DNA of 64,000 nt from an uncultured Gammaproteobacteria bacterium (GCA_965231015.1 OZ246408.1:19755-83754); one strand, 5' to 3'. Shown: positions 1,459-25,149, counted from the stretch's first letter. The notes: generated from the sequence alone by a model not told the origin. Made by a program: numbers and translations.

Positions 1459-1471
1459 CCTAAATTTAGGG

Positions 1472-5443: not shown

Positions 5444-5475
5444 CCCCCTTGGGCGAACTGCCGTTCGCCTCTACT

Positions 5476-5934: not shown

Positions 5935-8900
5935 CTACTCGAGCGTTTCTGATAGGGGATCGCTTGTATTATCACTACTGTTCGTTTCATCCCCAGCATT
6001 TGGGGCCACTTGGTCAATTTCATCAACCCCTCCACTTTGGTCAGGGTCTTCAACGGTCTCACCGTCGTCTGCCGGTTCTTCTGCAATTGGGTCAATATCA
6101 TTGATCCCTGCATCCACCTCGGTATCTTCCTCCGATTCTTCCTCGGTTGTTTCTTCTTCAATTGATTCTTCTTCAGGCTCAATAATTTCCTCGGTCTCTG
6201 GGTTCAAATACTTCTCTGGCTCCATATCCTTTCGATAGGCGGTTACAAACCAGTTAAATTCAGTATCAGATGAACTGTCTGCCATAATCGTGAAGCCATC
6301 ATTGTTTTGTTCATTCACATAAAGTTGGACCGGTTCACCAATCGGCATGGCCATAACTCGTACCGGAGCAATGGTTGAAATAATATCGTTAAAGTGAGGA
6401 TCAATCTCTTCAAATTCAATTGTGACTTGACCGCTTGAAAGTTGAGCTGTTCCAGACATGGTTACCGTGGCCTCAAGAGAAAGTTCAGCCTGAACTTCAA
6501 CCTCTTCACCCTGATAGGTCTCAATCACAGCCATAAATGATCCCTTAGTCTTAAAATCACCTTCTGGACTGACTTCCCAATCACCTAGACCGGCAATCTT
6601 ATTTACATTGATAATGTCGTTGGCCTGCATGTATAGACTTCCTCCAAGAGTCAAACTGCCAACATTGGAACCAATACCGCCAAAGCCACTAGCAATATTT
6701 TCGGTACCAGGGGTGGTATCAGATACACCGCCGCCCCAGTAGCCTACATTCACAAAAGCAATAATTGAATCACCACCATCACCGTTATAATTTTCCAAAG
6801 CATTACCCACAATCGGTCCGGCTTCAGTTGCCTTCATGGCGTAACCCGGGGTCGAAGAAGTAGTTAGTGGATCACCCACAGCAATCGGACCATTTTCAAG
6901 ACTAACCTTCACCGGCACTCGTCCAGCCAGAGCGACCGGATAATCTCCTTCAATACTGTCACCTGCTAAGAAGCCGGGCTTGGTTGAAACAATTCCGGCA
7001 ACTAGCCCATCATAAGACTCAGATGAACGTCGGACTTTTTCATCACTTGTATCAAAGACCACGACATCACCAGCTTCAAGCACTTCGTCTGAAGGGAACA
7101 TTTCCGCAAAGTCGTAGCTGCCGGTTGACCAACCACTAGCATTGGTGCGCATCATGTCGCCACCCCAACCTTCTGAGCCATCGTAATAAATATATTTGTC
7201 AGTTTGTAAATCACCGCGGTCGGACGGATACAACCGACCGGCCAGCTGCACATCGCCCTCGGCAGTGATCACTGCAGCACTCGTTCCACCTGAACCACGC
7301 ACGGTCAGCGAAGCATTATCAATTACTAAATTGTCAGTGATCACAGTATCAGTGCCGTCAGTGCCAAGCACTGCTCCGGTATAGTATTCCACATCTACAA
7401 AGGCCACGATGATATCATTTCCAGGATCAGCAATTTGCATAGCCCGCCCAAGTACCATCCCAGCCTCAGTGGCTTTCATGGCGTATCCTGGAGTTGAAGA
7501 AGTGGTTAAATAATCACCGATTTCAATCAAGCCGTTTTCATCGGAAACACGAACCGGTACTCGACCTGACAGTGCGATCGGTGGACTGGTATCCCAACCC
7601 ATCACAAAAGCCGGATCAGTACTAACCACTCCTACCAAACCCGGTTCATAGGTCAATCCACTGCTTCGCAATACATGCTCTGCATTTGCTGAATCTAAGA
7701 CCACAACTTCACCAGCAGACAAAGTAGCATCTGTGGATGGCATGCGCTCAGCCACGTCAAAAGCAGCAGAGTTAAAACTGCCATCAGCATAAGCATTACC
7801 TACGGCTGGAGCTCCTATGTCGGCACAGGTATCAGGGTCGGTTCCGTCGTCATCAATACACAAGATACTACTTCCAAGCTCAACGTCTCCGGCGATGAAC
7901 AGGTCGTCAGAACCGGCAACAGCCGCTAAAGTCTTAGTTACGGCACCACTAGAAATTGTGTGATAGGCGTAAGTATTGGAAACCTGACCGGCATGCAGTG
8001 TTCCAGCAAACATCATCTTGCCCTGATTGGTAAACCGTAAAATTGTTTCCGCAGCCGCGTCATTGCGAACCTTGATCACATCTTCGGCTGATCCGCTCTG
8101 TCCCACATCAATCACCAAAGCCTGCTGGCCCATAGAATTCACTCCGGGATTATCAACAAAATCCTGATAAATATGTAAAGCTGTGGCGTCCCCACCGCCG
8201 GAACCGCCGCCAGAATTTTTAATCCGAACCACTTCTCCCACACTGCCCACTTCATCATCAAGCTGGGCCAAATAAAGCAGTGCATTGCTGGAACCGGCTG
8301 TGTAGTTAGAACTGCCACTATCAACCCGGGTAACTTTTATGCCACTACCAGAGGTAAGCGAATTAGTGCCGATATCCATAACATCTCCGGTAGTAACATC
8401 CGTACCCGTAATGGTTACGCCGTCACTGGCTCCGGCATTGTCAAGATCGAGCTCAAGCTGACCCTGAACGTACAAATCACCATCACCGGTAGCCACGTTG
8501 GCCGTACCGCCGCCGCCGTCATGAATCTGCACATTGCCGTCTTCTGAATAAATAGCGTAGTTATTCGCTCCGCCAGAAGCCGTGGTGTACACGCCGTAGT
8601 TAGGGGTTGTCCCGCTTCCCGTGGCCGTAGCGTAAACCGCATAGTTATTGGTAGCGTTGGATCCGCCTACGCTGGAGTGCACCCCATAGTTAGTGGAGCC
8701 GGTACCACTAACTACATTGCGGTTACCATAATTGGTGGCGCTGGCAACATTAACAAAAGTACTCAAACCTTGATTGGTTCCAGCCCCGGTATCAGACAAG
8801 CGTAAGTAGGCGCCATAGGCTCCGGAAGAAATAGTACCAGCGGTATTTGCAATATCTGCGTTAATTCCATATACGTTAGCAACTGAACCCGCAGCAGAAA

Positions 8901-11900
8901 GGTCAGTGTCAATTTCCAAGCCATAAATGTAATCAACGTTACCGGTATTCGAAAGCGTGGCCTCTGCCTTAATTGCACGCAGATAACTGAGGGCTGCACT
9001 ATCTGAAGCACTGCTGTAATCAGCTACGGCCTGAATCGCACTCATATCGATAGTGGAGGCAGTGGTGCCAGTAAAATCTAAAGTTGAGGAGGTGCCGTAT
9101 AAAGTACGGGCCGCTGTTTGCGCACCGGTAAGAGTCGCATCAAGATCTAAGCCGGTGAAATCGCTGTCAGCATTCAGGGTTTCTGAAACATCTACCACGG
9201 TGTTCGTACTAATAGCACCTGCTGTGCCAGCAGCCAGGTGGCCGGACAGGTTCACGTCATCGCTCAGCTCGAACTGGCTGGCGCCGTTATTCCAGCGCAA
9301 CGACTCGGTGCCGGCGTTGTTAAAGTAGAGATATTCGTCCAGTTCTACATTGCCGGCTACGTCTAAAATCTGGCCCGGAGCACTGGTGCCCAGGCCCACG
9401 TTGCCGTCACTACCGCGCACGAACAGAGCGTTGGCCGCGCCGGTGGCCTGCACCTGGAAATCGACGTCCGCACCGGTGTTGTTCACGACAACGATATCCT
9501 GCGTGCCTTCATCCAGGCTCAACATCGAGACGGCCCCGGCAAAAAAATCAATCTGATTATTCGTGAAACTGAGATAGGTATTAGTGTCCAGATTATGTTC
9601 CAACCTCTCGTCAACACCGATGTCGCCAGCCACTTCTAATTCCGTACTTGGATTATTGGTACCGACACCGACCCGGTCATCCACGGCATCAACAAAGAAC
9701 ATATTGTCATTGGCCGTGCTTTTAATTTGAAAATCTACAGCACTGGCGTTGTCATTGAAAATCATGGCCCCGGTGTTGATATAGGTCACTAGGGCATTAG
9801 TGCCGTCATGGGAAATAGCCACGTGATCAACCTCGCTCGCGGGATCATAAATGCCGAACATTCCGTAATTGCGAACAGTATCACTACCCGGATCCAGCCG
9901 CAGGTCTCCGCCGCCCACAGTGACCAACTCCAAATGCGACCCGGTTGAACTGAACTCCACATAATCATCGGTTTCACCATTCGGCCGCAGCTGCATATTG
10001 CCACTTGATTCAATGAAGTTACTGGAACCATTAATTGTGATAGTGCTGCCTGAAACGATAGTACCGTCCTGATCCACACTGAATTTTACGTCGCCTGTAT
10101 TATCAAAGTCTTCGATCGCTTCAATAAAATAGAAGCTACCTGTATCTTCTTCGTCTGTTTGAAGCGTGAGTAGAGTGTTAGAAAAAGCGGCGTTGTCTCC
10201 ATGAACGGTCACAACGTTTTCATTTGTGGTATCAATAAAGCCTGCATCACCGGCAACCTCCAAATCATAATCCGGTGCATTGGTACCGATTCCGAGCTCG
10301 TCATTAGACGCGTCCCAGAAAAAATTATTTTCTCCGGATAAACCGGAAGCGGTCCAGAACGTCACCTGTCCGGTTGATCCGGTTCCACTAGCAACTGTGT
10401 CATCGATACAAAACTCGGTACCATTATCAAAACAGAATTGATCGTCATTGTCGTCGTACCAAATTTCAGACTCATTAGCTGCAGAGGCAGAATTCTGACC
10501 GGTCCCTAAGTGAATCTGGCCGACTGTTGCGTTAGCCGAGGGGGTAATGAAAATCGGGTTACCTGATTGATTGTTTGTGTCAACAAAATTCACATTTAAT
10601 CCGTGAGCCCCTGAACCGGCAGCGTCAGGTTCATTGGTGAGTAGAATCAACGAACCACTGGAATTTTTTGAATTACCATCTAAAATTGACTGTGTAGTTG
10701 AATCTGACTGAACGAGAATTGAGTGTTGATTGGCCGCTTGCGAAAGATAGATTCCATACGCATTAGAACTGCTTTGGTTTGATAATCGGAAACCGGTTCC
10801 TGAACCACTATTCTCCAAATGAATAACGTCCTGATTCACTGAAGCTAAGGCTTCCAGATTTAACAAGCTTTCTCCTGCCGCGTTCGACAAAATATCAAGG
10901 TCAGCGTCAGGGGTGGTATCACCAATTCCCACATTACCGATTGTAAACACGGCCGCATAGTCGTTGGCGGCAACTGTCATTCCGTAGTCAGTTCCACCGC
11001 TGATGTTAGATAAATCAATATTCAATCCGGTGTTTGTGGCTGTTGAACTGTTAACTCCATCAGCAAAGTTGATATCCAAACCAGTGGTGTTCGCAGTTTG
11101 ATTGCTGTTTAAAATATCCAGGTCAATCTCTTGCATCACAATGGCGGTCGCTCCACCGGATGGATCATTAGCTACATCCAAAATTGCACTTGGTGAACTG
11201 GCTCCAATTCCAACCATATCGGCTGAACCGTCTACAAACAACATATTAGTCTCGTTGTTACTTTCCACTCGGAAATCAACTGAACCACCGCCTTCGTTAA
11301 AGATAGCCGCACCGGTTCCGGCAAGATTAATGTCTGCATTAGCTGCAGAGGTTCCACCCAAGTAGAATTCCTTGGTAGCATTATTGTAGAAAAAGTTGGC
11401 GTTATCTTCAGATAAACCAGAGTTTATAAACACAATTGAACCGTCTGTTAGTCCCGGATTTAAAGTGCCGTAAATGGCACCGTCTACTTCCAAATCGTCT
11501 TCAACGTAAAGGTCGCCCTCGCCAGTGGCAAAATCGACACTGGCCGCACCGTCCCAAATCTGAACGTTGCTTCCCTGGAAGTCAGCGGCCATGGCACTAC
11601 CAGCCCCGGCGTTTGTGACGTCAACCGAAATACCAAAAGCGTCAACCGGTGAGTTAGCGGCCATATCAAGATCAATTCCGTTGCCGGCAATATTTTTTGT
11701 GATTGAAAGCGCGTCTCCCGGACCTGCGTGGGTAATTGCTACACCTGATCCATTATTTGAGTTATCAGTTAAAGAAACCGTGATGCCGTCTCCGGTGCCG
11801 TTGCTGGCGTGAGTCACTGTGATACCGTCAGCGTCATTATTCGGATCAGTCATGTCAAGGTCAATTCCCTCACCACTTCCTGTGTTATTGATCAGAACCG

Positions 11901-17900: not shown

Positions 17901-19614
17901 TGTAAAGCGAACCATCATCGTAATAAGTAGTGGCACCCCCGGCGGCAAAGCGGCCGTCAGCGGCCACATTTCCGTTTTGGTCAATGTAAAACTCACGATC
18001 AGGTACACCATCGGCATCAGAATAAAGTTCCATGAAATAAAAGTTGCCGGTGTCCTCCTCATTCGTACTCATGTTTAAAATTGTATTGGAAAAGCCGGTG
18101 TTGGAAGCCAGAACAGTAACTAGGTCAAAATCAGTGCTTTGACTAATTTCCAAAGTTTCGTCTGCGGCATTAGAACCGGCAAACTGCAAAGCACCCGCAT
18201 CTACCGTGATCGAACGCCCGACTCCGGCTCCACCCTGGTCGTAGGCCGCATCAAGTGTGTTGGCACCGCCTCCCGCAATCGCAGAGTCCAAGTCATCAAG
18301 CACATCCTGAACATTGGTTGAATTCGAATTAGTAAACTCATCAAATACACCAATGAGATATGCACCTGAATCCGTAGCAGCTGTAGATTCGCCAGCTGTG
18401 GTGTCCGCGTCAAGATATAAACTAGTAGAAGCAATTAGATATAAATTACCGTCAGTCTCAATATTCCCCTCCACATACAAATCTTCCCCGTCTAATGCCA
18501 CGGTCGGAGCCGCATCTCCAATTTTAACGTTGCCGGTTTGAATGAAAAGGTCATCACCGGCTGCGTTTAAAGTAAAAGTAAAGTCGCCGCCGGAATCGGT
18601 TATGAGCCCGTCACCGTACTCGGAAGAAGCCCCAGCAATGAATCGGCCGTCAGTATAAACATTTCCTTCCACACCGGCCATACCAGCCACAAACAAGTCA
18701 TCACCTCCCAAAGCAAAGCCCCCGTTTGCCATGGTGGATGTATCCGAGGTTGAAGCTCCAACCACTAAATCGTTTGCAATATAGGCGTCAGACAACACTT
18801 CAATCTCATCTGCCACTCGAAGGTCGCCCACTCCGCCCGAGGCATACACAAACGCTGCATCAACTCCCACAATCACTGCTTCATCATCTTCAAACACACC
18901 GTTGGCTCCATCTTCCCAAAGACCACCAGTAATGTCCGAGAGAAATGCCACGGTGCCAGTGCCGTCTTGAAAGGTGATAGTGTTGGCACCGGTTGGATCA
19001 ATAAATTGGAAAGATGTAGTTACCCCATCGTTTGATGGTCCCTCAAAAACCAATGGAGTAGCACTGATAAATTCAGCACCAGAAAAATCAAAATCACCAG
19101 TGGCAACATCCCCGGTGTTCAGCATAAAACTACCCGAATCAATTCCATCGAGTGTTTGAGCGTTCAAAGCGTAAGGTGTGGCTACGACTCGTTTGCGCGG
19201 AGTCAGGGTCTCGCCTTCCACTTCGACCTCAAGATACACTTCATCGTTATCTGCAAAGACAGTATCGTTAACGGCTGCGTATCCATCCCCTGTATCACCC
19301 AGATTTTCTGAAAATAGCCCGTCGGTTAAAGTAATATTAATGTCAGCGTTAGTAGCACAACCGGAGTCATCATTTGACCAAAGACAAGAACCTCCTACAG
19401 CCGCATCATAAAACCTAAACTGCATGTCCGCGTTAGCGGCCGCCAGTGGAACCCCGTTTGAATCCAATAATCGACCCTGATAAGAAATGATGTTATCCGG
19501 ATCGACTGCACCTGCACGCTGAACCATAGGCACGAAAACGAGTGCCAGTAGGACGAACACAGCTAAATAGCCGGTCAGCTTTTTAAGATTTTTGAGTTGG
19601 GTTTCCCCCTTCAT
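5935..19614 (-). CDS. Giant (4559 aa) tail-fibre-like surface protein with two C-terminal peptidase-S74-like intramolecular chaperone domains
   Basis: Single uninterrupted 13.7-kb ORF. N-terminal signal/TM anchor (LAVFVLLALVFVPMV). N-terminal IxYQGRLxDxxGxP...FRFYDAxxGGxxLW motif. Dozens of (D/N)xVGIGTxxPxxxL(D/E)VxG repeats typical of 'tail fiber domain-containing' proteins. Gly/Thr/Asn/Asp-rich beta-repeat body. Two tandem blocks (..FDVAERMP..GLVGVVSTDPAF..ALSGRVPVRVS..GYAMKATEAG.. and ..YDFAEMFP..GLVAGIVSTKPGF..ALAGRVPVKVS..GYAMKATEAG..) resemble the endosialidase/tail-spike C-terminal chaperone (peptidase S74) fold. Acidic E/D-rich C-terminal tail. The start overlaps the upstream gene by 32 nt. 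Confidence 0.8.
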   Translation of the reverse strand: MKGETQLKNLKKLTGYLAVFVLLALVFVPMVQRAGAVDPDNIISYQGRLLDSNGVPLAAANADMQFRFYDAAVGGSCLWSNDDSGCATNADINITLTDGLFSENLGDTGDGYAAVNDTVFADNDEVYLEVEVEGETLTPRKRVVATPYALNAQTLDGIDSGSFMLNTGDVATGDFDFSGAEFISATPLVFEGPSNDGVTTSFQFIDPTGANTITFQDGTGTVAFLSDITGGLWEDGANGVFEDDEAVIVGVDAAFVYASGGVGDLRVADEIEVLSDAYIANDLVVGASTSDTSTMANGGFALGGDDLFVAGMAGVEGNVYTDGRFIAGASSEYGDGLITDSGGDFTFTLNAAGDDLFIQTGNVKIGDAAPTVALDGEDLYVEGNIETDGNLYLIASTSLYLDADTTAGESTAATDSGAYLIGVFDEFTNSNSTNVQDVLDDLDSAIAGGGANTLDAAYDQGGAGVGRSITVDAGALQFAGSNAADETLEISQSTDFDLVTVLASNTGFSNTILNMSTNEEDTGNFYFMELYSDADGVPDREFYIDQNGNVAADGRFAAGGATTYYDDGSLYTSAATSGFDIDVSAAAGSVDVILNGGNAGDDFTVDGSVLVVESDNDQVGVGTATPGAKLEVEQGAASVGLLIDQNGEGSALSLDTTAVTSDSLSISSNSTTTGNVIEISATSLTSGDMINLTRSGVSNNGGFISMNDGTDETIIFNYGGSPNGALTAPRGSIALDYTNGRIYINTDDANTWSQLGVAGAGNTLDLAYDQGGAGAGRQVTVDSSAIEFTGSNAADYTFEVTTNAAGGALYVNDTNGTGLALHVDNGDVQFDDDVNLGDALTDALTVTGAIQGASALYFDGATDDGWETIFVMPDPVGSDNSITFQDGTGTVAFLSDIGSSLWTDGTNGYFSNTEAIIVGADAAFSYGSGAAGDLKVDDELEVLGDVYLGNTSGDTVTSNAAAWTFANDTAVTLSGGVNGLNFDSNTLSIDATNDRVGIGTASPLATLDVRGAATFNEAGIDADFRIESDGNANMFFVDGGDNEVGIGTNTPVSFFHISSTDTGDVMTLSANSVTNGNAFTANLADLTGGNGIYLYRVDDADLFTGHMIHINQTNDNTGSTGDGLLSTMLGAGDAIEGTKTTPLTSGTSRSIIGTHNDTQTLTAATYIQGTVGVSNFSGDTDDNYTELQGTRGEANFTGTAGTAEERIYGSAGYALMDVGAQTVNYTAGAFGRSSAGNGTISNAYGLYGEVYPYGTGAITTAYGVYGYVREVTDAMTTGYGGYFRADDATTTIGIAAVIENTDQPMIRLTNNGAAETADIFVGAADPPIASADDGSLYLLDTGSEGELWLRTGGAWSEIALVSDITTGYWTEDGGSDYLYPANEPNRGLMIDPSGSTINGTNPNTYINLGWNSTIGTAATATDYLTISGGAYNRATEDYASVGGGYGNYAQDQYTTVAGGDTNQANEMHGTIGGGDNNIIDAGSSVTSASRWATIGGGDDNLIDAQGGAFQPGGQYSTIGGGNNNNITGTGGWAGRNGVIVGGADNTISAGISSAIGGGEDNTIDTTGSNFATIVGGYNNTVSAEFSTVAGGSYNTVVGRNSWVAGRSLNLDSSADQTFAFGYDSSSSSDIDISQANAFLVFPVEGIDGEYGEMGIGTATPGAKIDIVNPSGDAMPGIEINQANTAEPHLALLGISAEPSSLTEGDFWYETGASSDNPDSLCFRDSLGVVCVSSSSTTNYWQQSGTDLSPATSGDDILLGATETLTLNTSTNLFLDSDTSAGESTSATDSGAYLIGVFDEFDNSSASNVQDVLDDLDAAITGGATGDITSVGSCLTGDCFDGTDTNSTSLSFYDSDSHFGALQTVNLDGARTYSLPNQSGTIALTSDALWLDGTNGYFSNTEAIIVGADAAFSYGSGAAGDLKVDDELEVLGDVYLGNTSGDTVTSNAAAWTFANDTAVTLSGGVNGLNFDSNTLSIDATNDRVGIGTASPLATLDVRGAATFNEAGIDADFRIESDGNANMFFVDGGDNEVGIGTNTPVSFFHISSTDTGDVMTLSANSVTNGNAFTANLADLTGGNGIYLYRVDDADLFTGHMIHINQTNDNTGSTGDGLLSTMLGAGDAIEGTKTTPLTSGTSRSIIGTHNDTQTLTAATYIQGTVGVSNFSGDTDDNYTELQGTRGEANFTGTAGTAEERIYGSAGYALMDVGAQTVNYTAGAFGRSSAGNGTISNAYGLYGEVYPYGTGAITTAYGVYGYVREVTDAMTTGYGGYFRADDATTTIGIAAVIENTDQPMIRLTNNGAAETADIFVGAADPPIASADDGSLYLLDTGSEGELWLRTGGAWSEIALVSDVTASGVTLDGAYDYGGAGAGRQVTVDSSAIEFTGSNAADYTFEVTTNAAGGALYVNDTNGTGLALHVDNGDVQFDDNATLGSSDTDDIDVNGEFISNLIPNADDTYTLGDADQRWADIFLGSESIHIGTATADEYIIGYDTGNNALVYNEAGDDFDVRIEGDNIGDLFYVDAGDDRVAIGTNAAGARLDVLADLAEIAFRVNTQATSTANAVLIGNPGSGDAVLINNTGSGEGIDLDMTDPNNDADGITVTHASNGTGDGITVSLTDNSNNGSGVAITHAGPGDALSITKNIAGNGIDLDMAANSPVDAFGISVDVTNAGAGSAMAADFQGSNVQIWDGAASVDFATGEGDLYVEDDLEVDGAIYGTLNPGLTDGSIVFINSGLSEDNANFFYNNATKEFYLGGTSAANADINLAGTGAAIFNEGGGSVDFRVESNNETNMLFVDGSADMVGIGASSPSAILDVANDPSGGATAIVMQEIDLDILNSNQTANTTGLDINFADGVNSSTATNTGLNIDLSNISGGTDYGMTVAANDYAAVFTIGNVGIGDTTPDADLDILSNAAGESLLNLEALASVNQDVIHLENSGSGTGFRLSNQSSSNAYGIYLSQAANQHSILVQSDSTTQSILDGNSKNSSGSLILLTNEPDAAGSGAHGLNVNFVDTNNQSGNPIFITPSANATVGQIHLGTGQNSASAANESEIWYDDNDDQFCFDNGTEFCIDDTVASGTGSTGQVTFWTASGLSGENNFFWDASNDELGIGTNAPDYDLEVAGDAGFIDTTNENVVTVHGDNAAFSNTLLTLQTDEEDTGSFYFIEAIEDFDNTGDVKFSVDQDGTIVSGSTITINGSSNFIESSGNMQLRPNGETDDYVEFSSTGSHLELVTVGGGDLRLDPGSDTVRNYGMFGIYDPASEVDHVAISHDGTNALVTYINTGAMIFNDNASAVDFQIKSTANDNMFFVDAVDDRVGVGTNNPSTELEVAGDIGVDERLEHNLDTNTYLSFTNNQIDFFAGAVSMLSLDEGTQDIVVVNNTGADVDFQVQATGAANALFVRGSDGNVGLGTSAPGQILDVAGNVELDEYLYFNNAGTESLRWNNGASQFELSDDVNLSGHLAAGTAGAISTNTVVDVSETLNADSDFTGLDLDATLTGAQTAARTLYGTSSTLDFTGTTASTIDMSAIQAVADYSSASDSAALSYLRAIKAEATLSNTGNVDYIYGLEIDTDLSAAGSVANVYGINADIANTAGTISSGAYGAYLRLSDTGAGTNQGLSTFVNVASATNYGNRNVVSGTGSTNYGVHSSVGGSNATNNYAVYATATGSGTTPNYGVYTTASGGANNYAIYSEDGNVQIHDGGGGTANVATGDGDLYVQGQLELDLDNAGASDGVTITGTDVTTGDVMDIGTNSLTSGSGIKVTRVDSGSSNYTAGSSNALLYLAQLDDEVGSVGEVVRIKNSGGGSGGGDATALHIYQDFVDNPGVNSMGQQALVIDVGQSGSAEDVIKVRNDAAAETILRFTNQGKMMFAGTLHAGQVSNTYAYHTISSGAVTKTLAAVAGSDDLFIAGDVELGSSILCIDDDGTDPDTCADIGAPAVGNAYADGSFNSAAFDVAERMPSTDATLSAGEVVVLDSANAEHVLRSSGLTYEPGLVGVVSTDPAFVMGWDTSPPIALSGRVPVRVSDENGLIEIGDYLTTSSTPGYAMKATEAGMVLGRAMQIADPGNDIIVAFVDVEYYTGAVLGTDGTDTVITDNLVIDNASLTVRGSGGTSAAVITAEGDVQLAGRLYPSDRGDLQTDKYIYYDGSEGWGGDMMRTNASGWSTGSYDFAEMFPSDEVLEAGDVVVFDTSDEKVRRSSESYDGLVAGIVSTKPGFLAGDSIEGDYPVALAGRVPVKVSLENGPIAVGDPLTTSSTPGYAMKATEAGPIVGNALENYNGDGGDSIIAFVNVGYWGGGVSDTTPGTENIASGFGGIGSNVGSLTLGGSLYMQANDIINVNKIAGLGDWEVSPEGDFKTKGSFMAVIETYQGEEVEVQAELSLEATVTMSGTAQLSSGQVTIEFEEIDPHFNDIISTIAPVRVMAMPIGEPVQLYVNEQNNDGFTIMADSSSDTEFNWFVTAYRKDMEPEKYLNPETEEIIEPEEESIEEETTEEESEEDTEVDAGINDIDPIAEEPADDGETVEDPDQSGGVDEIDQVAPNAGDETNSSDNTSDPLSETLE
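12341..12519. repeat. Second intragenic direct repeat (179 bp, identical to 17123..17301, offset 4782 = 3x1594)
   Basis: Seen in the sequence; encodes the repeated ..GGAGAGRQVTVDSSAIEFTGSNAADYTFEV.. segment. A third, diverged copy lies near 18.2 kb. Confidence 0.8.
12565..13945. repeat. Intragenic direct repeat, copy 1 (1381 bp, 100% identical to 15526..16906)
   Basis: Base-by-base comparison. The identical 70-aa and 84-aa antisense ORFs in the track at offset 2961 confirm it. 2961 = 3x987, so the repeat is in-frame and duplicates ~460 aa of the giant protein (..TDGTNGYFSNTEAIIVGADAAF...GGAWSEIALVSD). Confidence 0.9.
15526..16906. repeat. Intragenic direct repeat, copy 2 (1381 bp, 100% identical to 12565..13945)
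   Basis: As for copy 1. Identity breaks at 15525/12564 and at 16907/13946. Confidence 0.9.
17123..17301. repeat. Partner copy of the 179-bp intragenic repeat
   Basis: Identical to 12341..12519. Confidence 0.8.
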
Positions 19615-22600
19615 ATTGTTTTGTTTCTTTCTTTGGCAAATTTTCTACTTTGCTAGATTGGTTTTGTCCATTTTGCTTATCAAGATAAACGTCAATAGCC
19701 ACGTCAGTTGGTTCTTTTTTGTCTTTGTAATCAATTGGTCGATATTCGGTTGGTTGGTAACCTTTTCGCTCGTAGCGAGTGAAATATTCGTTTGGTCCTA
19801 CCAGGAATGAATAGCGTCCTTTGCTATCAGTGAGAGTGGTTTCAAGCAGTTTATTGTATTTTGGCTCAAAGATTCGCACCACTACGTTGGCTAACGGTTG
19901 GCTAGTTCGTTTGTCATACACAATTCCCCAGCCTTTTGGTTTTCGCACCCGGGTCAAGCGCTTGATCAGGAAGTAAAGCAGAACCTGGGCAACAGCCACA
20001 GTTATTGTGAGCACGGTCGGCATAATGATGGCTACAACAATCGCGAGCACTACTCCGAACACGGCTAATATATTCTGTATCCGACGAGCCCAGCGCATGA
20101 ACTTGATTCTGGCCGGCGTTTTGACCCCTTCGGTCTTGACCGGATCCATTGGAATATTTGCGGCTATGGTTGCATCTTTCTCGCTCACCCTGACAATCTC
20201 GCCATGATACACGTCAAGATACACTCCATCATCAGTCACCCGAGCCAAATACTCACTTGGAAACTTGTAACCAGGTTTAGTGACCTCGATTCTGTATTCA
20301 CCCCGATCAGCCAAGAAAAAGTAACGACCCTCTCTATCAGTCACCCGTGACTGTAATAACTGCCCTTTTTCATCTTCCTTTGAAGACAGTTTGAATAGAC
20401 GAACAATCGCCAGACCAATTGGGATCTTGGTCATGGAGTTATAGACCACACCCCAACCCTTCCGTTTACGACGCCAGAAGAATAGAATCGGTGCGCTCAA
20501 CAGGTACTGCAAAAACGGTAGCAGGTTGAAAAAGAGAGCCAACCAGATCAAATTTCCAAGCGCCAAGAAAAGCAGCAACGGAATTGTAATCTCTAAGGCA
20601 TCCATGACGCTTGGTACCTCCCGCACCTCCTCTAGCGCAAAGACCACGTTGTCAAGAATGATACTAAGAGCCTGTTCTGGCGTCTCAAGCACCTCCTCAA
20701 GTGGTGGTGGAAGCGGGGTTAGTTCGATTGTCGGATTAATGATGTTGTCCTCGACATAAAAGTCGGGTGTGACCGCATCATCGTATCCCGCGGCTTCAGC
20801 TACAATATAGTAGTCGCCAATCGGGACGTACCAAGCAAAGGATCCGTCAGCCGGTGTAGTCACGGGGTTCAGTTCACCATAAAGTGACCCGTCCCAGACT
20901 ATGAATTCACCGGTATCATTGGAAAAGAGCGTAACGCGCGAGTTGCCTACGCGCTTAGTTCCACTTTCAGTGGTGGTGAAAGTGTATCCAAACGCGTCAA
21001 CTTGCGCCGTGAAAGGAATATTTTGAGCATATCCGCCCTCGTAATAAACCGTAACTTCTAATGGATAAGCATCCGCTACAGTTGGGGTGATCACGTCAGC
21101 GTAATATGCGTCGTCGGTTAAGGCGGCAATGTAAATGTCACCGGTAGCGTAATCATTAACGTAAGGCGGATTCATTAAAAAGAGGGAATCGCCAAAACTT
21201 AACTCCACGTGGTCAACCGGCCAAGAAATGTTGCGAGTCAACAACTGCACCCGAAGTTCTGTGCCGACAAGCATACGCACAACTCCGTCGCGAGGTATTA
21301 ACTCAATTTTATTCTTGGCTACATAAAACTCTACGTCCGCGGCCGGGATTTCTCCGGGGCCACCATCATCAATCGGACACTCGCCACAATCTCCTGGACA
21401 AGTGGTGCACGTTTCATCTCCGTTACAGGAACCATCTCCACACACTGGCTCTGCTTCACTTGGGCATTCGCCACAGTCACCAGGACATGTTTCACAGGTT
21501 TCATCACCAGAACAAACTCCATCTCCACAGACCGGAACTTCGGGACAAACTCCACAATCGTCCGGGCAGGTTGCACAGGTTTCATCTCCTTCACAGATTG
21601 CATCTCCACACACCGGCTCAGGAGCAAATGGCGTACCAGATCCCAAAGCGCCTGATGAGAACTGACCCGCAAGGTCATAAGCGAACACGGCGTAGTAGTA
21701 GGTCACACCGTTAGTTAGACCCGAGTGTAGATACTCTGTTCCCAGCTGATTGTAAATCAAGGTTCCATCAGCCGGGTCTGTAGGGTAACCGTCTGTGCGG
21801 TAAACGATCCAAATACCATCTAAATCTGCGTCAGCTGGATTTATCCATTCCAAATAATTCTGACTGTCCCCGGGCGTGACCGTAAGGATCACGTTACCAG
21901 GTGGTGGATCATAAAGCGTTGTGAAAGTGTAATCTCCATCAGTGGAAGAATTACCGAACTGATCAGCCGAAGTCACTTGAAAGTGATACAGCGTGTTTTC
22001 ACTAAGTCCGGTAAGAAGAACCGAATGTTCAGTGACATAAGCACTGTCTGATTCATCGGATCCGTAAGTAACGTCCAAGCCATAATCAACTAAACTATCA
22101 GCTGGTTCATCAGTGTCCCAAAGAACACGAGCTGATGTTTCAGTTATATCTTCAACTCTGACGTTTGAAATGATCGGCGGGGTTAGGTCATTTGTGGTAA
22201 AGGTGTAGTCCCCCACTGTAGTTCGGTTCAAGCAAAAGTCTGCTGAACTAACCTCAAAGTGATACACCGTTCCCGCGCTAAGACCGGTCAGATCAATACT
22301 GTGTTCAGTGATCAGTGAATTATCTGTCTCACTACCGATTTCATAAGAATCGGTTTCACCGTAATTGACCAAGCTATCAGCGGTCTCATCAGTTTCCCAG
22401 GTAATTGTGGCTTCGTTCTCCGTGATATTGATGACGGAAACATTGGAGATGTTTGGCGGTATTGAATCACCACATCCTGTATTTGGACCTCCGTTGCCAC
22501 CGTCTCCAACAGATAGAGTAACGTCCACATCCCCGGGACTACTAATTGGCACCCAGGCTGAACCCCAATCAGCAAAAGTGCCCCCACTGATATAGATTTG

Positions 22601-23077
22601 ATAGGTGCCCACGTTCGACGGGTTCCCCACTTGGTTGGCCCCGACTCCGGAATCAACCGCATTTTCACCCACTTTGATGACCACCTCACTGCCACCGGCA
22701 ATGGCCCCACCATCTCCGGCGCAGATTTCGACTGTTATAACGTCTGCAGCAATACTTACTCCGGCTTCCTCTGCCCCACTGCAGTCGGTTGCCGTGGTTA
22801 GATCGGTTCCATCGTCTTCAACATCAACATCATCTTCGCTGATGCTCGACGTGTCGAATGAGGCATCGAAGGAAACAAGCATGGTTTCCCCTTCGGCTAC
22901 CCCGGAACCGGTAGTAAAAGTAAGTTCATGATCAGTATCATTCCCCACTTCCAGGCTGGTGGCCCGGTGACTGACACTGGTCAAGGTGGCCGCACTGACT
23001 GAAACAGCCGCAATAACCGCCGCGAAAAAAGCAGCGACTAGTACACTGTTCCAAATTTTTTTGAACTGCTTAGCCAC
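19583..23077 (-). CDS. Large secreted/membrane multi-domain protein (PAP-N/FN3-like domains, triple Cys-rich CGDGxCxGDETCxTCPxDCGxCP repeats, carboxypeptidase-regulatory-like domains, ~4 TM helices)
   Basis: 1164 aa; signal peptide. Two ..ISNV.V..ITE..A.I.W.TDE.ADSLV.YG.. domains resembling the purple-acid-phosphatase N-terminal/FN3-like fold. Three tandem Cys-rich 26-aa repeats. A CarboxypepD_reg-like segment (SRVTLFSNDTGEFIVWDGSLYGEL..). C-terminal region with TM helices alternating with two (R/K)KGWG(V/I)VY...GRY(F/S)FL.. domains. Co-oriented with the giant gene and overlapping its start. Confidence 0.7.
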   Translation of the reverse strand: MAKQFKKIWNSVLVAAFFAAVIAAVSVSAATLTSVSHRATSLEVGNDTDHELTFTTGSGVAEGETMLVSFDASFDTSSISEDDVDVEDDGTDLTTATDCSGAEEAGVSIAADVITVEICAGDGGAIAGGSEVVIKVGENAVDSGVGANQVGNPSNVGTYQIYISGGTFADWGSAWVPISSPGDVDVTLSVGDGGNGGPNTGCGDSIPPNISNVSVINITENEATITWETDETADSLVNYGETDSYEIGSETDNSLITEHSIDLTGLSAGTVYHFEVSSADFCLNRTTVGDYTFTTNDLTPPIISNVRVEDITETSARVLWDTDEPADSLVDYGLDVTYGSDESDSAYVTEHSVLLTGLSENTLYHFQVTSADQFGNSSTDGDYTFTTLYDPPPGNVILTVTPGDSQNYLEWINPADADLDGIWIVYRTDGYPTDPADGTLIYNQLGTEYLHSGLTNGVTYYYAVFAYDLAGQFSSGALGSGTPFAPEPVCGDAICEGDETCATCPDDCGVCPEVPVCGDGVCSGDETCETCPGDCGECPSEAEPVCGDGSCNGDETCTTCPGDCGECPIDDGGPGEIPAADVEFYVAKNKIELIPRDGVVRMLVGTELRVQLLTRNISWPVDHVELSFGDSLFLMNPPYVNDYATGDIYIAALTDDAYYADVITPTVADAYPLEVTVYYEGGYAQNIPFTAQVDAFGYTFTTTESGTKRVGNSRVTLFSNDTGEFIVWDGSLYGELNPVTTPADGSFAWYVPIGDYYIVAEAAGYDDAVTPDFYVEDNIINPTIELTPLPPPLEEVLETPEQALSIILDNVVFALEEVREVPSVMDALEITIPLLLFLALGNLIWLALFFNLLPFLQYLLSAPILFFWRRKRKGWGVVYNSMTKIPIGLAIVRLFKLSSKEDEKGQLLQSRVTDREGRYFFLADRGEYRIEVTKPGYKFPSEYLARVTDDGVYLDVYHGEIVRVSEKDATIAANIPMDPVKTEGVKTPARIKFMRWARRIQNILAVFGVVLAIVVAIIMPTVLTITVAVAQVLLYFLIKRLTRVRKPKGWGIVYDKRTSQPLANVVVRIFEPKYNKLLETTLTDSKGRYSFLVGPNEYFTRYERKGYQPTEYRPIDYKDKKEPTDVAIDVYLDKQNGQNQSSKVENLPKKETKQYEGGNPTQKS

Positions 23078-23089
23078 ATGTTAAATCCA

Positions 23090-24040
23090 TTAATAATCAT
23101 ATTGATTATTTTGTTCTTCGATTCTTAAGGCCAATTTTTTTCGAAGAACAGTTACCGCGATCAGGATATTTAGAATCACGAAAGCCAGAAGCGCCAATTG
23201 CCATGGAAAAATCCAGAATACACTGTCGGCTTGCACTGTTTCTCCGTTATCAAGTTTCAACTCCAGGGTTGCCTTGTACCGCCCCAGACCGAAGTTGATC
23301 CACTCGTTATTCATTTCTTCGAAAAAACCGGATTTTGTGACTTCGTTCCGAATCCAGCTGGCTGTGAATTCACGGGTGCTCATAGGCAATACCCGGCTTA
23401 ATTCTTCGTTGACTGGAATTCCGGCCACTGGGGTACCGAAAAAATCGCGTACCACGATCTGCCCGATCGGAATTAAATGAACGTTTCCTTGATTTTGCAT
23501 CCGGAAACTGAAATCAACTGGCAGACGATTAGTCCACCCCTTGGTTTCAAATTCCAGAATCTCTGCTTTGTAGCTGTTCTCGCCCTCCACTGTGAGAAAA
23601 AACAGTACTGCTATTTTTGCCTCCACACTGACATTACCTGCTTCGCCGGCTTCGGAAACAAGAACTGCTGCATAATATCCACCAGCCTCTATATCTGAGG
23701 GTACGGCGATAGTCAGGGCCAACGTAGCCGTTTGACCTGGGTCGACTTCAACCGTTCGTTCAGGAAACTTAATCCATTCAGCCAATCCCGTATGGTCTTC
23801 TTCGTATGGAATGAACTTTGGCACCCCAGGCTCTTCCGAACTCTCAAATTTGATAGTGCTTAAAGAATAAATTCTAGTTTGATCGGATGAGTTGTGAATA
23901 ATCATCTCTTGATTGATTGACTCCCCACGATTAGCAATCAGGTCTACCGTAGCCGGACTCACTGTTGCCGCCTGTGTTGCTCCCACCACCAGAGACACCG
24001 TTCCAATTAGCAATGCAATCAAATATACTACCCATTTCAT
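23090..24040 (-). CDS. Secreted protein with C-terminal TM anchor (hypothetical; operon partner of the giant protein)
   Basis: 316 aa; signal peptide MKWVVYLIALLIGTVSLVVGATQA. C-terminal hydrophobic helix followed by a basic tail (LRKKLALRIEEQ). 1-nt gap to the upstream gene. Confidence 0.55.
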   Translation of the reverse strand: MKWVVYLIALLIGTVSLVVGATQAATVSPATVDLIANRGESINQEMIIHNSSDQTRIYSLSTIKFESSEEPGVPKFIPYEEDHTGLAEWIKFPERTVEVDPGQTATLALTIAVPSDIEAGGYYAAVLVSEAGEAGNVSVEAKIAVLFFLTVEGENSYKAEILEFETKGWTNRLPVDFSFRMQNQGNVHLIPIGQIVVRDFFGTPVAGIPVNEELSRVLPMSTREFTASWIRNEVTKSGFFEEMNNEWINFGLGRYKATLELKLDNGETVQADSVFWIFPWQLALLAFVILNILIAVTVLRKKLALRIEEQNNQYDY

Positions 24041-24041
24041 A

Positions 24042-24947
24042 CTAAAAGTTTCCTGAACTTATGAGTGATATCGTGTGTGAATAGTCACCCTCGGGAGTAC
24101 CTGCCGCTACCGTGGCTTTCAGCGTAAGGAAATCCCTACTTTTATAAGAGAGCGAACCTTTAGTGCCTACCTCTTGAAATGAGCCGGTGAAAGCGGTGTC
24201 AGCCGTGTCGAAGGTAGATCCAGCCAAAGTTTGATCACTAGAACGCGCACCGTATTCCTCTGAGCCTAAAGTTACGGCACCGTCGACCACATCATCGATG
24301 TCGTTTGCTCCATCACGCAAATTTCCATCTTCAAGCACATATACTGTATAGCCATCATCAGTATCTACGGTAACTTCCCAGCCCACGAGAGCCGTTGAAT
24401 AATCAGTATCGTCAACCGTACCAAAACCAACTGATGAACCAGACATGCGGTACAGATAATCATTCGTTCCATCAATCACTAAAGCCGGCCCTCCCGTTTC
24501 AATGTTATCAAGCGTAATGTTGTTTCCGGCAATCCCGGTGATTTCACCGATTCCTGCCACTTGTGATGAACCGAGGTCCTGGATAACCGCAACCATGTTT
24601 CCGGTTGAAAAACCAGTCGTACCCGCAACGGTGACCGTGTTTCCAACCAGTGCAGTGGCTTCGGTATTACTATTGCTCTGTGTAAAAAGATCAAAACTGA
24701 TCACTTGATCAAAAATCCCCTGCCTGTAACCCGCTCGAGCATCATAATTTGCTGAGCTTGAGTTACCTATTCCTGTGTTTCCGATTGTGTCTCTTAATTG
24801 ATAGCTAGCAGATGTTGAATCATCTGATCCACCAGCCCCAATGGTATCCCAGCGTATCTCGAAATTAGCTGACGACATTTGTGCAGATACTAAGTCAGCG
24901 AAAAACGAACTGAAAATTACAATTAAGCTTAAAATCAAAAAACGCAT
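24042..24947 (-). CDS. Secreted Ser/Thr/Gly-rich protein (hypothetical; first gene of the giant-protein operon)
   Basis: The ORF track starts at a TTG that is actually the -35 box of the promoter. The ATG giving MRFLILSLIVIFSSFFADLVSAQ (a classic signal peptide) at 24947 is the likely start. Repeated SxNYxLRDTIG-like motifs. Confidence 0.55.
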   Translation of the reverse strand: MRFLILSLIVIFSSFFADLVSAQMSSANFEIRWDTIGAGGSDDSTSASYQLRDTIGNTGIGNSSSANYDARAGYRQGIFDQVISFDLFTQSNSNTEATALVGNTVTVAGTTGFSTGNMVAVIQDLGSSQVAGIGEITGIAGNNITLDNIETGGPALVIDGTNDYLYRMSGSSVGFGTVDDTDYSTALVGWEVTVDTDDGYTVYVLEDGNLRDGANDIDDVVDGAVTLGSEEYGARSSDQTLAGSTFDTADTAFTGSFQEVGTKGSLSYKSRDFLTLKATVAAGTPEGDYSHTISLISSGNF

Positions 24948-24963
24948 ACATTTTGGCTTCTTA

Positions 24964-24992
24964 ATTATATCATGAATACATAATTTAGTCAA
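24964..24992 (-). promoter_or_regulatory. Near-consensus sigma70 promoter of the giant-protein operon (TTGACT -17- TATAAT, read on the minus strand)
   Basis: Reverse complement of 24964-24992 reads TTGACTaaattatgtattcatgaTATAAT. The ATG of the first operon gene lies ~16 nt downstream, giving a very short leader. Confidence 0.55.
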
Positions 24993-25101: not shown

Positions 25102-25149
25102 TCTGTCTCAATTTGTCTAGCCTAATGTTGACAAACAACTGAACCCCTA

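What the first reader, a model, noticed from the sequence alone, without database searches (positions are those of the whole stretch)
5935..24992. Four-gene operon encoding a 4559-aa tail-fibre-like giant surface protein with two tandem peptidase-S74-like chaperone domains, a 1164-aa multi-domain membrane protein and two secreted 316-aa proteins
A near-consensus promoter at ~24964-24992 drives four tightly packed minus-strand genes with gaps of 1, 12 and -32 nt. The giant protein combines three things: the N-terminal YQGRL...FRFYDA..GG..LW motif, many VGIGTxxPxxxLxVxG repeats, and two C-terminal blocks resembling the self-cleaving intramolecular chaperone of phage tail spikes/endosialidases. 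Phage-fibre assembly machinery therefore seems to have been co-opted into a cellular surface appendage. The 1164-aa partner carries FN3/PAP-N-like domains, a triple CGDGxCxGDETCxTCPxDCGxCP repeat, and carboxypeptidase-regulatory-like domains on both sides of TM helices. It is a plausible anchor or assembly platform. In small-genome symbiotic bacteria such giant proteins are leading candidates for host attachment. This combination with dual S74 domains is unusual.
Basis: partly seen in the sequence, partly recalled or inferred. Interest (0 to 1): 0.7.

Follow-up and report, generated by a model that had tools for sequence, protein, structure and literature searches.

The report
CPR surface-fibre and pilus-like gene cassette
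A four-gene operon, conserved in about 50 tiny symbiotic (CPR/Uhrbacteria-type) bacterial species, couples a pilus-type subunit, its membrane-anchored chaperone and a large membrane protein with a giant phage-tail-fibre-like surface protein, which probably folds using two phi29-type (not S74-type) self-cleaving chaperone domains and is a strong candidate for host attachment.

Summary
The four ORFs, their spacing (1, 12 and -32 nt), the promoter, the repeat motifs and the domain calls on the 1164-aa protein are all real. Three points need correction.

2. Gene 1 is 301 aa, not 316, because its supposed TTG start is the promoter's -35 box. It is a divergent Pam-type pilin.

The giant's N-terminus matches the docking domain of Bdellovibrio MAT fibres. 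The same gene order precedes the fibre gene in 50 of 56 informative loci (55 species-representative genomes plus this window), and the promoter is conserved in 30 of 59.

Best reading: a cell-surface adhesive fibre assembled in the phage manner and encoded together with a Pam/WxL-like donor-strand module. This is a new variant built from known kinds. Autocleavage, trimerisation, docking and host binding are inferred, not shown.

The parts
24964..24992 (-). Sigma-70-type promoter-like element: TTGACT, 17-nt spacer with extended-10 TG, TATAAT
   Evidence: 11 of 12 matches, best in the region. The same element lies at the same distance upstream of gene 1 in 30 of 59 orthologous loci, against 2.2% of control windows.
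24042..24947 (-). Gene 1: 301-aa secreted Pam-superfamily pilin-like protein (signal peptide aa 1-~22; S-x-N-Y/F motifs; C-terminal Pam-pilin-type domain aa ~169-301)
   Evidence: NCBIfam PamT N-terminus E 1e-13 and CPR_Pam_pilin_C E 3e-4, both below the curated cutoffs. 131 and 90 of 148 relatives hit these two models. 448 representative relatives. Start at ATG 24947.
23090..24040 (-). Gene 2: 316-aa membrane-anchored two-Ig-domain PapD-like / WxLIP-like putative chaperone (signal peptide, invariant NxGNxH, C-terminal TM helix aa ~280-300)
19583..23077 (-). Gene 3: 1164-aa polytopic membrane protein. N-terminal signal/anchor, N-terminal beta domain, tandem FN3/PAP_N domains, 3 Cys-rich repeats (aa 490-568), hydrophobic stretches aa ~830-867 and ~1003-1037, each followed by an R/K-rich GWG(V/I)VY + CarboxypepD_reg-like domain
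   Evidence: Pfam fn3 8e-19, Pur_ac_phosph_N 2e-16, CarboxypepD_reg 6e-18. Hydropathy and repeats. A homologue lies directly upstream of the fibre gene in 54 of the 56 loci with >=6 kb of upstream sequence and in most truncated loci.
5935..19614 (-). Gene 4: 4559-aa MAT-like fibre protein (one N-terminal hydrophobic segment, no other TM; G/A/T/D/S/N-rich; 5 close Cys pairs)
   Evidence: The exact protein is on record on a 1.0-Mb NCBI contig.
19129..19506 (-). Fibre N-terminal domain (aa ~37-162), homologous to the Bdellovibrio MAT N-terminal cell-proximal domain
   Evidence: NCBIfam Bdello_MAT_N E 3e-8, 33.5 bits (cutoff 60). 35 of 41 family members hit it, best 4e-11. Local HMM.
7369..7782 (-). 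Auto-chaperone block 1 (aa ~3945-4082), phi29 gp12-D4 / Peptidase_G2-type beta-tulip domain. Predicted cleavage F3952|D3953 (D-V-A-E).
6727..7140 (-). Auto-chaperone block 2 (aa ~4159-4296), same domain type. Predicted cleavage Y4167|D4168 (D-F-A-E). The junction upstream of it is highly conserved.
6232..6579 (-). C-terminal beta-sandwich (aa ~4346-4461) resembling the C-terminal domain of phage tailspikes and depolymerases
5938..6204 (-). Acidic low-complexity C-terminal tail (aa 4471-4559, 42% D+E)
15526..16915 (-). Copy A of the 1,390-nt intragenic duplication (aa 900-1363)
   Evidence: 99.8% identical to copy B.
12565..13954 (-). Copy B of the intragenic duplication (aa 1887-2350)

Best explanation
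This is a conserved cell-surface appendage cassette of an Uhrbacteria-type CPR (Patescibacteria) bacterium. One promoter is read as driving four Sec-exported products.

- Gene 4 is a very long fibre of the Bdellovibrio MAT kind. Its N-terminal beta-rich domain stays next to the cell. A long beta-rich stalk carries phage-tail-fibre-like VGIGT motifs. The C-terminal assembly module holds two phi29 gp12-type (Peptidase G2, beta-tulip) auto-chaperone domains, a tailspike-type beta-sandwich and an acidic tail.
- By analogy with gp12, the C-terminal modules nucleate trimerisation and register the stalk. They then cut themselves off just before the conserved Asp of D-x-A-E (F3952|D3953 and/or Y4167|D4168), exposing the mature distal tip.
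- Genes 1-3 form a Pam/WxL-like donor-strand module: a pilin-like subunit, its membrane-anchored PapD/WxLIP-like chaperone, and a large FN3-bearing polytopic membrane protein that probably serves as anchor or assembly platform (the PamR-like role).
- The whole most likely serves host-cell attachment by an episymbiont.

Shown here: domain homologies and folds, conserved motifs, conserved gene order, conserved promoter. Inferred: trimerisation, autocleavage, which site or sites are used, physical coupling of the fibre to the gene 1-3 module, and the host-binding function.
For: Auto-chaperone blocks:
- The family profile hits the phi29 gp12 C-terminal fragment 3gqh (E 5e-5), starting at chain residue 1, and full-length gp12 6qz9 at residues 690-743. 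D-x-A-E therefore aligns with D692..E695. Mature gp12* ends at residue 691.
- A and E are invariant and D is >=90% conserved across the family. 148 of 190 block instances keep DxAE.
- PF11962 hits 10 of 55 relatives and S74 hits 0 of 55.
- Phage virion structural proteins share the block at 33-37% identity.

Other components:
- MAT_N: 35 of 41 family members hit. The MAT paper describes the same layout of signal peptide, ~130-aa N-terminal domain, trimeric fibre and chaperone.
- Gene 1: Pam models hit in 131 and 90 of 148 relatives.

Genomic context:
- Synteny: 50 of 56 loci have g1-g2-g3 directly upstream of the MAT_N fibre gene.
- Saccharimonadia and other distant loci keep Pam-pilin-C proteins, a gene 2-type chaperone and (in L085) a MAT_N fibre. 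The Pam preprint reports a tail-fibre-like protein co-localised with pam operons.
- The promoter is conserved.
- Flanks are housekeeping genes, not phage genes.
Against: - All NCBIfam and Pfam hits of the window's own sequences are below the curated cutoffs: PF11962 19.8 vs 25 bits, MAT_N 33.5 vs 60, PamT 51 vs 240, Pam_pilin_C 21 vs 55.
- In phi29 the auto-chaperone is the extreme C-terminus. Here the blocks are internal and tandem, with about 260 further residues downstream. Cleavage at block 1 would discard 607 aa, including a well-folded beta-sandwich, which is odd if that domain is the functional tip.
- No model of a PamC/D chaperone matched gene 2. Gene 3 is far larger than PamR and topologically different.
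- No ATP synthase genes were seen among the flanking ORFs tested.
- Co-transcription, trimerisation, surface location and any interaction between the fibre and genes 1-3 are untested.
Confidence: 0.62

Rival explanations
1. One reading: the two C-terminal blocks are Peptidase S74 (endosialidase / T5 L-shaped tail fibre type) intramolecular chaperones, which cleave through a Ser-Lys dyad.
For: The general logic of a trimeric fibre with a C-terminal self-cleaving chaperone fits. Bdellovibrio MAT fibres often end in S74. Two CPR relatives carry precomputed PF13884 hits (P0048, P0050), and one has an SDARLK motif upstream of a G2 block.
Against: No PF13884 hit on the whole protein, on either block (E up to 10), or on any of 55 relatives. 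No SDxRxK motif anywhere in the protein. The best sequence and fold matches are to phi29 gp12 D4, a different family and fold.
Confidence: 0.03
2. The blocks are non-catalytic beta-tulip modules, like phage capsid cement or decoration proteins. They act only as permanent trimerisation or interaction domains. Nothing is cleaved, and the terminal beta-sandwich is the functional distal tip.
Against: The top match by both sequence and structure is the cleaving gp12 domain, not the cement proteins. The invariant D-x-A-E sits exactly at the gp12 cleavage register, and the junction upstream of block 2 is strongly conserved.
Confidence: 0.25
3. The fibre gene and genes 1-3 are functionally independent neighbours: a Pam-like pilus and a separate adhesin that are merely co-regulated.
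For: No domain in the fibre matches a Pam pilin or a donor strand. Bdellovibrio MAT fibres are not reported with such partners. The distant relative in L006 has pilins, chaperone and FN3 protein without a fibre directly downstream.
Against: The order g1-g2-g3-fibre is kept in 50 of 56 loci at only ~35-45% protein identity, with tight or overlapping junctions. CPR3 and Saccharimonadia loci also keep gene 1- and gene 2-like ORFs (the chaperone-type match being the strong one) next to a MAT_N fibre.
Confidence: 0.3
4. The region is a prophage remnant, and the giant ORF is a phage tail fibre rather than a cellular protein.
For: Phage-type modules are present: the G2 block, the tailspike-like C-terminal domain, and VGIGT motifs that hit PHROG tail-fibre families. 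A Y1 transposase lies next to the operon.
Against: No other phage genes are present and the flanks are housekeeping genes and tRNAs. All four products have Sec-type signal sequences. The same cassette lies in the same housekeeping context (S20, RmuC) in other genomes and occurs in about 50 species genomes.
Confidence: 0.03

Closest known systems
phi29 gp12 pre-neck appendage C-terminal auto-chaperone (D4; MEROPS G2, Pfam PF11962; PDB 3gqh/3gqk/3suc/6qz9)
   Different: Here there are two copies in tandem about 215 aa apart. They are internal, followed by a beta-sandwich and an acidic tail, and lie in a cellular Sec-exported 4559-aa protein. The window sequence scores below Pfam's gathering threshold. 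Cleavage and ATP-dependent release are untested.
Bdellovibrio bacteriovorus MAT (mosaic adhesive trimer) fibres (Caulton et al. 2024, PMC10769870)
   Same: A signal peptide is followed by a conserved ~130-aa beta-rich N-terminal domain (NCBIfam Bdello_MAT_N hits 35 of 41 family members). Both are long fibres with phage-like features, modular C-terminal ends with or without a self-cleaving chaperone, and a proposed role in recognising another bacterium.
   Different: MATs are ~1000 aa, come from a diderm predator, and end in S74 or non-chaperone tips. G2 blocks are not reported for them. This protein is 4-5 times longer, comes from a CPR bacterium, uses G2 blocks, and is encoded in an operon with a pilin/chaperone/FN3 module. 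Its scores are below the NCBI cutoff.
Pam pilus system of Ca. Mycosynbacter amalyticus and other CPR (Troman et al. 2026 preprint, 10.64898/2026.03.03.709456)
   Same: CPR-specific. Gene 1 and its relatives hit the PamT and Pam_pilin_C models. Gene 2 is a PapD-like two-domain protein with a C-terminal TM helix, like PamC/D. An FN3-plus-TM protein is present, as with PamR. A tail-fibre-like protein is co-localised with the operon.
   Different: Only one pilin-like gene is present, against PamA/B/E/T, and only one chaperone. The FN3 protein is 1164 aa and polytopic, with Cys-rich and CarboxypepD_reg domains. All hits are far below the equivalog cutoffs. The lineage (Uhrbacteria type) is not highlighted in the preprint. 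No ATP synthase genes were seen nearby.
WxL / Csc cell-surface clusters of Firmicutes: WxLIP (DUF916-DUF3324-TM; PDB 9i1y)
   Different: No WxL domain was detected in gene 1. No Pfam DUF916 or DUF3324 hit at E <= 0.01. The phylum and the partner proteins differ.
Chaperone-usher pili (PapD/FimC/CfaA/CsuC chaperones)
   Different: There is no usher and no outer membrane. The chaperone is membrane-anchored. No sequence-level similarity was detected.

Membership tests
Peptidase S74 intramolecular chaperone (PF13884) | Match to the PF13884 profile | tested here: not met
   No hit on the whole protein (E <= 0.01), on either block alone (E <= 10), or on any of 55 relatives.
Peptidase S74 intramolecular chaperone (PF13884) | Catalytic Ser-Lys motif SDxxxK at the cleavage site | tested here: not met
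   No SD.R.K anywhere in the 4559 aa, and in only 1 of 120 relatives.
Peptidase G2 / phi29 gp12 auto-chaperone (PF11962) | Match to the family profile or to gp12 by sequence | tested here: inconclusive
   Block 2 alone scores 19.8 bits, E 6e-4, below the gathering score of 25. 10 of 55 relatives hit, best 2.9e-9. The family profile against gp12 gives E 5e-5 and 2e-4.
Peptidase G2 / phi29 gp12 auto-chaperone (PF11962) | gp12 D4 (beta-tulip) fold | tested here: met
Peptidase G2 / phi29 gp12 auto-chaperone (PF11962) | Conserved Asp and Glu at the cleavage site (gp12 S691|D692-F-A-E695) | tested here: met
   D3953-V-A-E3956 and D4168-F-A-E4171. A and E are invariant and D is >=90% conserved. The register is fixed by the alignment to 6qz9 residues 690-743. 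That these residues are catalytic is from my own recollection of Xiang et al. 2009 and MEROPS, not verified here.
Peptidase G2 / phi29 gp12 auto-chaperone (PF11962) | Located at the extreme C-terminus and released after trimerisation | tested here: not met
   The blocks are internal and tandem, with 263 aa following block 2.
Peptidase G2 / phi29 gp12 auto-chaperone (PF11962) | Actual autocleavage and ATP-dependent release | not testable with these tools
   Needs protein expression and mutagenesis, or proteomics.
MAT (mosaic adhesive trimer) fibres | Signal peptide followed directly by the conserved ~130-aa beta-rich N-terminal domain | tested here: inconclusive
   Bdello_MAT_N 33.5 bits, E 3e-8, over profile positions 15-82 of 162, below the cutoff of 60. 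35 of 41 family members hit, best 4e-11. The N-terminal hydrophobic segment is present.
MAT (mosaic adhesive trimer) fibres | Intertwined trimeric beta-helix/beta-prism fibre | not tested
   No multimer prediction was available. The stalk has no Pfam domains; only the VGIGT-motif stretches hit PHROG families, one of which is annotated tail fiber protein.
Pam pilus system (CPR) | Pilin with the Pam C-terminal truncated-Ig domain | tested here: inconclusive
   CPR_Pam_pilin_C 21 bits (cutoff 55) and PamT 51 bits (cutoff 240). 90 and 131 of 148 relatives hit.
Pam pilus system (CPR) | PapD/FimC-like chaperone with a C-terminal TM helix | tested here: met
Pam pilus system (CPR) | FnIII-type membrane anchor (PamR: two FnIII domains plus one C-terminal TM helix) | tested here: inconclusive
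   Gene 3 has tandem fn3 domains and TM segments, but it is 1164 aa and polytopic with extra domains.
Pam pilus system (CPR) | Assembly by donor-strand exchange | not testable with these tools
   Needs complex prediction or cryo-EM.
WxL/Csc cluster | WxLIP (DUF916-DUF3324-TM) protein | tested here: met
WxL/Csc cluster | Partner proteins carrying a WxL domain | tested here: not met
   No Pfam family hit for gene 1 at E <= 0.01.
Chaperone-usher pilus | Outer-membrane usher | tested here: not met
   No usher-like ORF in the operon or the window. All four products were annotated otherwise.

The most novel reading that the evidence does not exclude
The Pam/WxL-like donor-strand module (pilin-like gene 1, its membrane-anchored chaperone gene 2, and the FN3 polytopic protein gene 3) is the dedicated membrane socket for the MAT-like fibre. 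In a monoderm CPR cell, which has no outer membrane, strand-complementation machinery would have been recruited to hold a phage-style trimeric fibre whose length evolves rapidly (1,000 to more than 4,500 aa, by intragenic duplication). The gene 1-3 products would then be the unidentified 'surface element' that MAT N-terminal domains bind. That would make this a composite appendage of a kind not yet described.
Probability: 0.3. Interest if true: 0.78.

Novelty: new variant of a known kind. Interest (0 to 1): 0.58.

Why it matters
CPR/Patescibacteria are a large fraction of bacterial diversity and live attached to host cells, yet the molecules that make contact are mostly unknown outside Saccharibacteria.

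This cassette is present in about 50 Uhrbacteria-type species genomes. It gives concrete, testable attachment candidates and predicts exact processing sites (F3952|D3953 and Y4167|D4168).

It also connects three systems that were described separately and only recently: Pam pili (2026), Bdellovibrio MAT fibres (2024) and Firmicute WxLIP proteins (2023). The connection suggests that membrane-anchored PapD-like chaperones are a general monoderm solution. It also suggests that phi29-type and S74-type auto-chaperones are interchangeable cassettes shared between phages and cellular fibres.

The large variation in fibre length, together with the near-identical 1.4-kb internal duplication, points to rapid evolution of reach or specificity.

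Tried and rejected
- S74 assignment: rejected.
- phmmer of the C-terminal 527 aa against PDB: nothing. Only family profiles reached gp12.
- Pfam and PHROGs on 600-aa segments of the stalk: no domains apart from the short VGIGT-motif hits.
- Xiang et al. 2009 (the gp12 auto-chaperone paper) is not held. The catalytic roles of D692 and E695 and the ATP-dependent release therefore rest on my own knowledge plus the chain boundaries seen.
A trimmed MAT_N alignment (A7) worked.
- A viral contigs pattern scan with block 2 found nothing. tblastn against phage genomes did find homologues.
- The gene 1 family profile against PDB gave no meaningful hit, so no Pam pilin structure was reachable by sequence.
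- The listing of cluster members returned no names or accessions for any of the four proteins, so the organism is inferred only from homologues (Ca. Uhrbacteria / Patescibacteria).
- Prophage origin: rejected on context.
- No consensus intrinsic terminator was found after the giant gene.

Full report
**1. What is in the sequence**

The four minus-strand ORFs exist exactly as described: 5935..19614 (4559 aa), 19583..23077 (1164 aa), 23090..24040 (316 aa) and 24042..24992. The junctions are 1 nt, 12 nt and a 32-nt overlap.

The promoter-like site TTGACT-17-TATAAT, with an extended-10 TG, lies at 24992..24964. It scores 11 of 12 and is the best match in 20 kb, although the total number of promoter-like sites in the region is not above shuffled expectation. 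The "TTG start codon" of the first ORF is the first three bases of the -35 hexamer. Gene 1 must therefore start at the ATG at 24947 and is 301 aa. That is how it is called in a Logan assembly, in an NCBI record and in orthologues.

I compared 59 orthologous loci. In 30 of them a match of at least 10/12 of the same form, TTGAC(T/G)-17-TATA(A/C)T, lies at the same distance upstream of gene 1, against 2.2% of control windows. The promoter is therefore supported by conservation and not only by consensus. A hairpin at 25142-25174 ends the upstream gene. No consensus terminator was found inside the operon or after it.

**2. The contested C-terminal blocks**

Pfam gives no Peptidase_S74 hit on the whole protein, on either block, or on any of 55 relatives, and the S74 SDxRxK signature is absent.

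Block 2 gives a sub-threshold hit to Peptidase_G2 (PF11962; 19.8 bits, E 6e-4).

The C-terminal region has more than 1,600 relatives, mostly from Ca. Uhrbacteria and other Patescibacteria. Among the best 120, the ~135-aa block occurs once in 68 proteins, twice in 42 (with a conserved spacer) and three or four times in 10.

Profiles of the family hit the crystallised phi29 gp12 C-terminal fragment 3gqh/3gqk (E 5e-5) starting at its first residue. They also hit full-length gp12 (6qz9) at residues 690-743. The family's D-x-A-E therefore aligns with W690-S691-D692-F-A-E695. Mature gp12* ends at residue 691. A and E are invariant and D is at least 90% conserved, and 148 of 190 block instances keep DxAE.

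The block also has tblastn homologues (33-37% identity, beginning at the D of DFAE) in virion structural proteins of PA5oct-like jumbo phages and a Sinorhizobium phage.

Downstream of block 2 come a Gly-rich linker, a confidently modelled beta-sandwich and an 89-aa tail that is 42% D+E. The beta-sandwich resembles the C-terminal domain of the Pam1 tailspike and of K1 lyases.

Conclusion: the "intramolecular chaperone" idea is right in kind, but the family is G2 (phi29 gp12), not S74. One relative (P0050) carries an S74-type SDARLK motif upstream of a single G2 block, so the two chaperone types seem interchangeable in this fibre family.

**3. The rest of the giant protein**

It has one N-terminal hydrophobic segment and no other TM segment. 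It is G/A/T/D/S/N-rich with 0.7% Lys, and has five closely spaced Cys pairs.

35 of 41 members of this CPR domain family do the same (best 4e-11). In Bdellovibrio, all 21 MAT fibres have this ~130-aa domain directly after the signal peptide. It is thought to sit at the cell surface bound to an unidentified element, while the variable C-terminus, with or without an S74 chaperone, points outward.

The stalk has no Pfam domains. PHROG hits are confined to ~35-aa stretches around the nine VGIGT motifs, and one of those families is annotated tail fiber protein.

The gene contains a 1,390-nt duplication at 99.8% identity (window 15526..16915 = 12565..13954) and a 194-nt one at 98%. The only independent assembly breaks about 930 nt into the gene, so I cannot tell whether the duplication is real.

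**4. The three partners**

*Gene 1 (301 aa; signal peptide only).* It hits NCBIfam "CPR-type pilus protein PamT" (E 1e-13, N-terminal part) and "Pam pilus system pilin subunit" C-terminal domain (E 3e-4), both far below the cutoffs. It has 448 representative relatives. Of 148 relatives tested, 131 hit the PamT model and 90 the pilin C-domain model. I therefore read it as a divergent Pam-superfamily pilin.

*Gene 3 (1164 aa).* It carries tandem fn3/PAP_N domains, three Cys-rich repeats and hydrophobic stretches at aa ~830-867 and ~1003-1037. Each stretch is followed by an R/K-rich-GWG(V/I)VY-CarboxypepD_reg unit (aa 870-943 and 1041-1130), and there is a weaker such unit before the first stretch. 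By the positive-inside rule the two strong units are probably cytoplasmic; that is an inference. Its FN3-plus-TM make-up recalls the proposed anchor PamR, but gene 3 is much larger.

**5. Conservation**

Gene 2 homologues at 42-46% identity sit in the same order in three other MAGs: ~301 aa, 313 aa, ~1140 aa, then a giant of 3612 or 3911 aa. In one case the same S20/RmuC neighbours are present.

A scan of species-representative genomes with the MAT_N domain returned 79 loci, nearly all titled Uhrbacteria or Patescibacteria. Of the 56 loci (this window included) with at least 6 kb of upstream sequence, 50 have homologues of genes 1, 2 and 3 in the same order and strand directly upstream. Three lack a detectable gene 2. 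Two (CPR3 and Saccharimonadia) have gene 1-like and gene 2-like ORFs but no gene 3. The gene 2-type match is the strong one in both. In the Saccharimonadia locus the gene 1-like ORF lies downstream of the chaperone.

Fibre ORFs range from about 1,000 to 3,500 aa and usually carry two, and up to four, G2 blocks. The window's protein is at the long end.

In the Saccharimonadia locus, two proteins with a Pam-pilin C-domain precede a gene 2-type chaperone and a 710-aa MAT_N fibre. Another distant locus has Pam-pilin-C proteins, the chaperone and a 497-aa FN3 protein. This agrees with the Pam preprint's one-line remark that a tail-fibre-like protein co-localises with pam operons.

The window's flanks are housekeeping genes (YchF, Pol I, PNPase, ComM, DNA polymerase III delta, S20, RmuC) and tRNAs. 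There are no phage structural genes and no second copy of any cassette component.

**6. How it most likely works**

Shown: four Sec-type exported products from a conserved unit with a conserved promoter.

Inferred by homology with gp12 and MAT fibres:
- The fibre trimerises from its C-terminus, with the G2 blocks acting as folding nuclei and registration clamps.
- The blocks then cleave before D3953 and/or D4168, releasing 607 or 392 residues.
- The MAT_N end remains at the cell.

Inferred by homology with Pam and WxLIP:
- Gene 2 holds gene 1's incomplete Ig-type domain by strand complementation at the membrane.
- Gene 3 anchors the assembly.

Whether the fibre physically docks on the gene 1-3 module is open. 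The tight synteny argues for it, but I have no direct evidence.

The main internal tension concerns the position of the blocks. In gp12 the auto-chaperone is terminal. Here the blocks are internal and tandem, and cleavage would discard a well-folded tailspike-like domain. A non-cleaving role as a beta-tulip trimerisation module therefore remains a serious rival (about 0.25).

**7. Novelty and verdict**

Every component belongs to a kind already described: gp12-type auto-chaperones (with a 2009 remark about adhesins, as cited), MAT fibres (2024), Pam pili (2026 preprint) and WxLIP (2023). I found no paper describing this cassette.

What is new:
- a lineage-wide four-gene arrangement;
- G2 rather than S74 chaperones, in tandem, on a MAT-like fibre;
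- the sequence-level link between CPR pilus chaperones and WxLIP;
- extreme and apparently fast-evolving fibre length.

I rate it a new variant of a known kind, with interest 0.58. It is solid and testable, and it matters for CPR host attachment, but it is not a new principle unless the fibre proves to be anchored through the donor-strand module.

Noticed in passing
window 15526..16915 and 12565..13954; also 17123..17316 and 12341..12534: A 1,390-nt intragenic direct duplication at 99.8% identity (aa 900-1363 = 1887-2350), plus a 194-nt duplicate at 98% in swapped order. This is either a very recent expansion of the fibre or an assembly artefact. The one independent assembly (Logan SRR7048221) breaks about 930 nt into the gene.
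   Followed up: partly
window 25166..25726 (-), hairpin 25142..25174: A Y1 (IS200/IS605-type) transposase ORF lies immediately upstream of the operon promoter. Orthologous loci L002 and L003 carry a NUDIX gene there instead, so this looks like a lineage-specific insertion next to the cassette.
   Followed up: no
window 4157..5443 (+): A 428-aa protein with six PF11617 Cu-binding_MopE Cys-rich repeats (E 1e-49), in a locally GC-rich (55%) stretch, convergent with the giant gene. The 4512..5516 (+) and 4049..4843 (-) ORFs overlap it and are probably spurious.
   Followed up: partly
loci L010, L014, L016, L020, L022-L024 and others; L042: Many contigs that clearly carry this CPR cassette are titled 'uncultured Gammaproteobacteria bacterium' (TPA_asm MAGs), and one is titled 'Candidatus Kapaibacterium'. 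The record-level taxonomy is probably wrong.
   Followed up: no
protein P0050 (relative of the C-terminal region): It carries an S74-type SDARLK motif about 215 aa upstream of a single G2 block, in the position of block 1. This suggests that S74 and G2 auto-chaperones are swapped as cassettes within the CPR fibre family.
   Followed up: partly
giant aa ~4220-4260 (block profile positions 62-100): A weak, non-significant (E 0.12) profile hit to the 5898-aa grappling-hook protein GhpA of the predatory bacterium Aureispira (PDB 9flp).
   Followed up: no
locus L006/L007 (GCA_022729515.1, GCA_002339755.1), 1..9956: A distant Pam-like locus with three putative pilins (743, 328 and 376 aa) is preceded by a 1867-aa Big_5/TIG protein with a weak T4SS_pilin hit and by a 773-aa protein with myxo-type Cys-rich repeats. 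This is a different large surface protein paired with the same chaperone family.
   Followed up: no
window 40001..42000; ORF 40749..42806 (+): The GC content rises locally to 0.575, with many overlapping ORFs on both strands. The 685-aa ORF has no Pfam hit.
   Followed up: no
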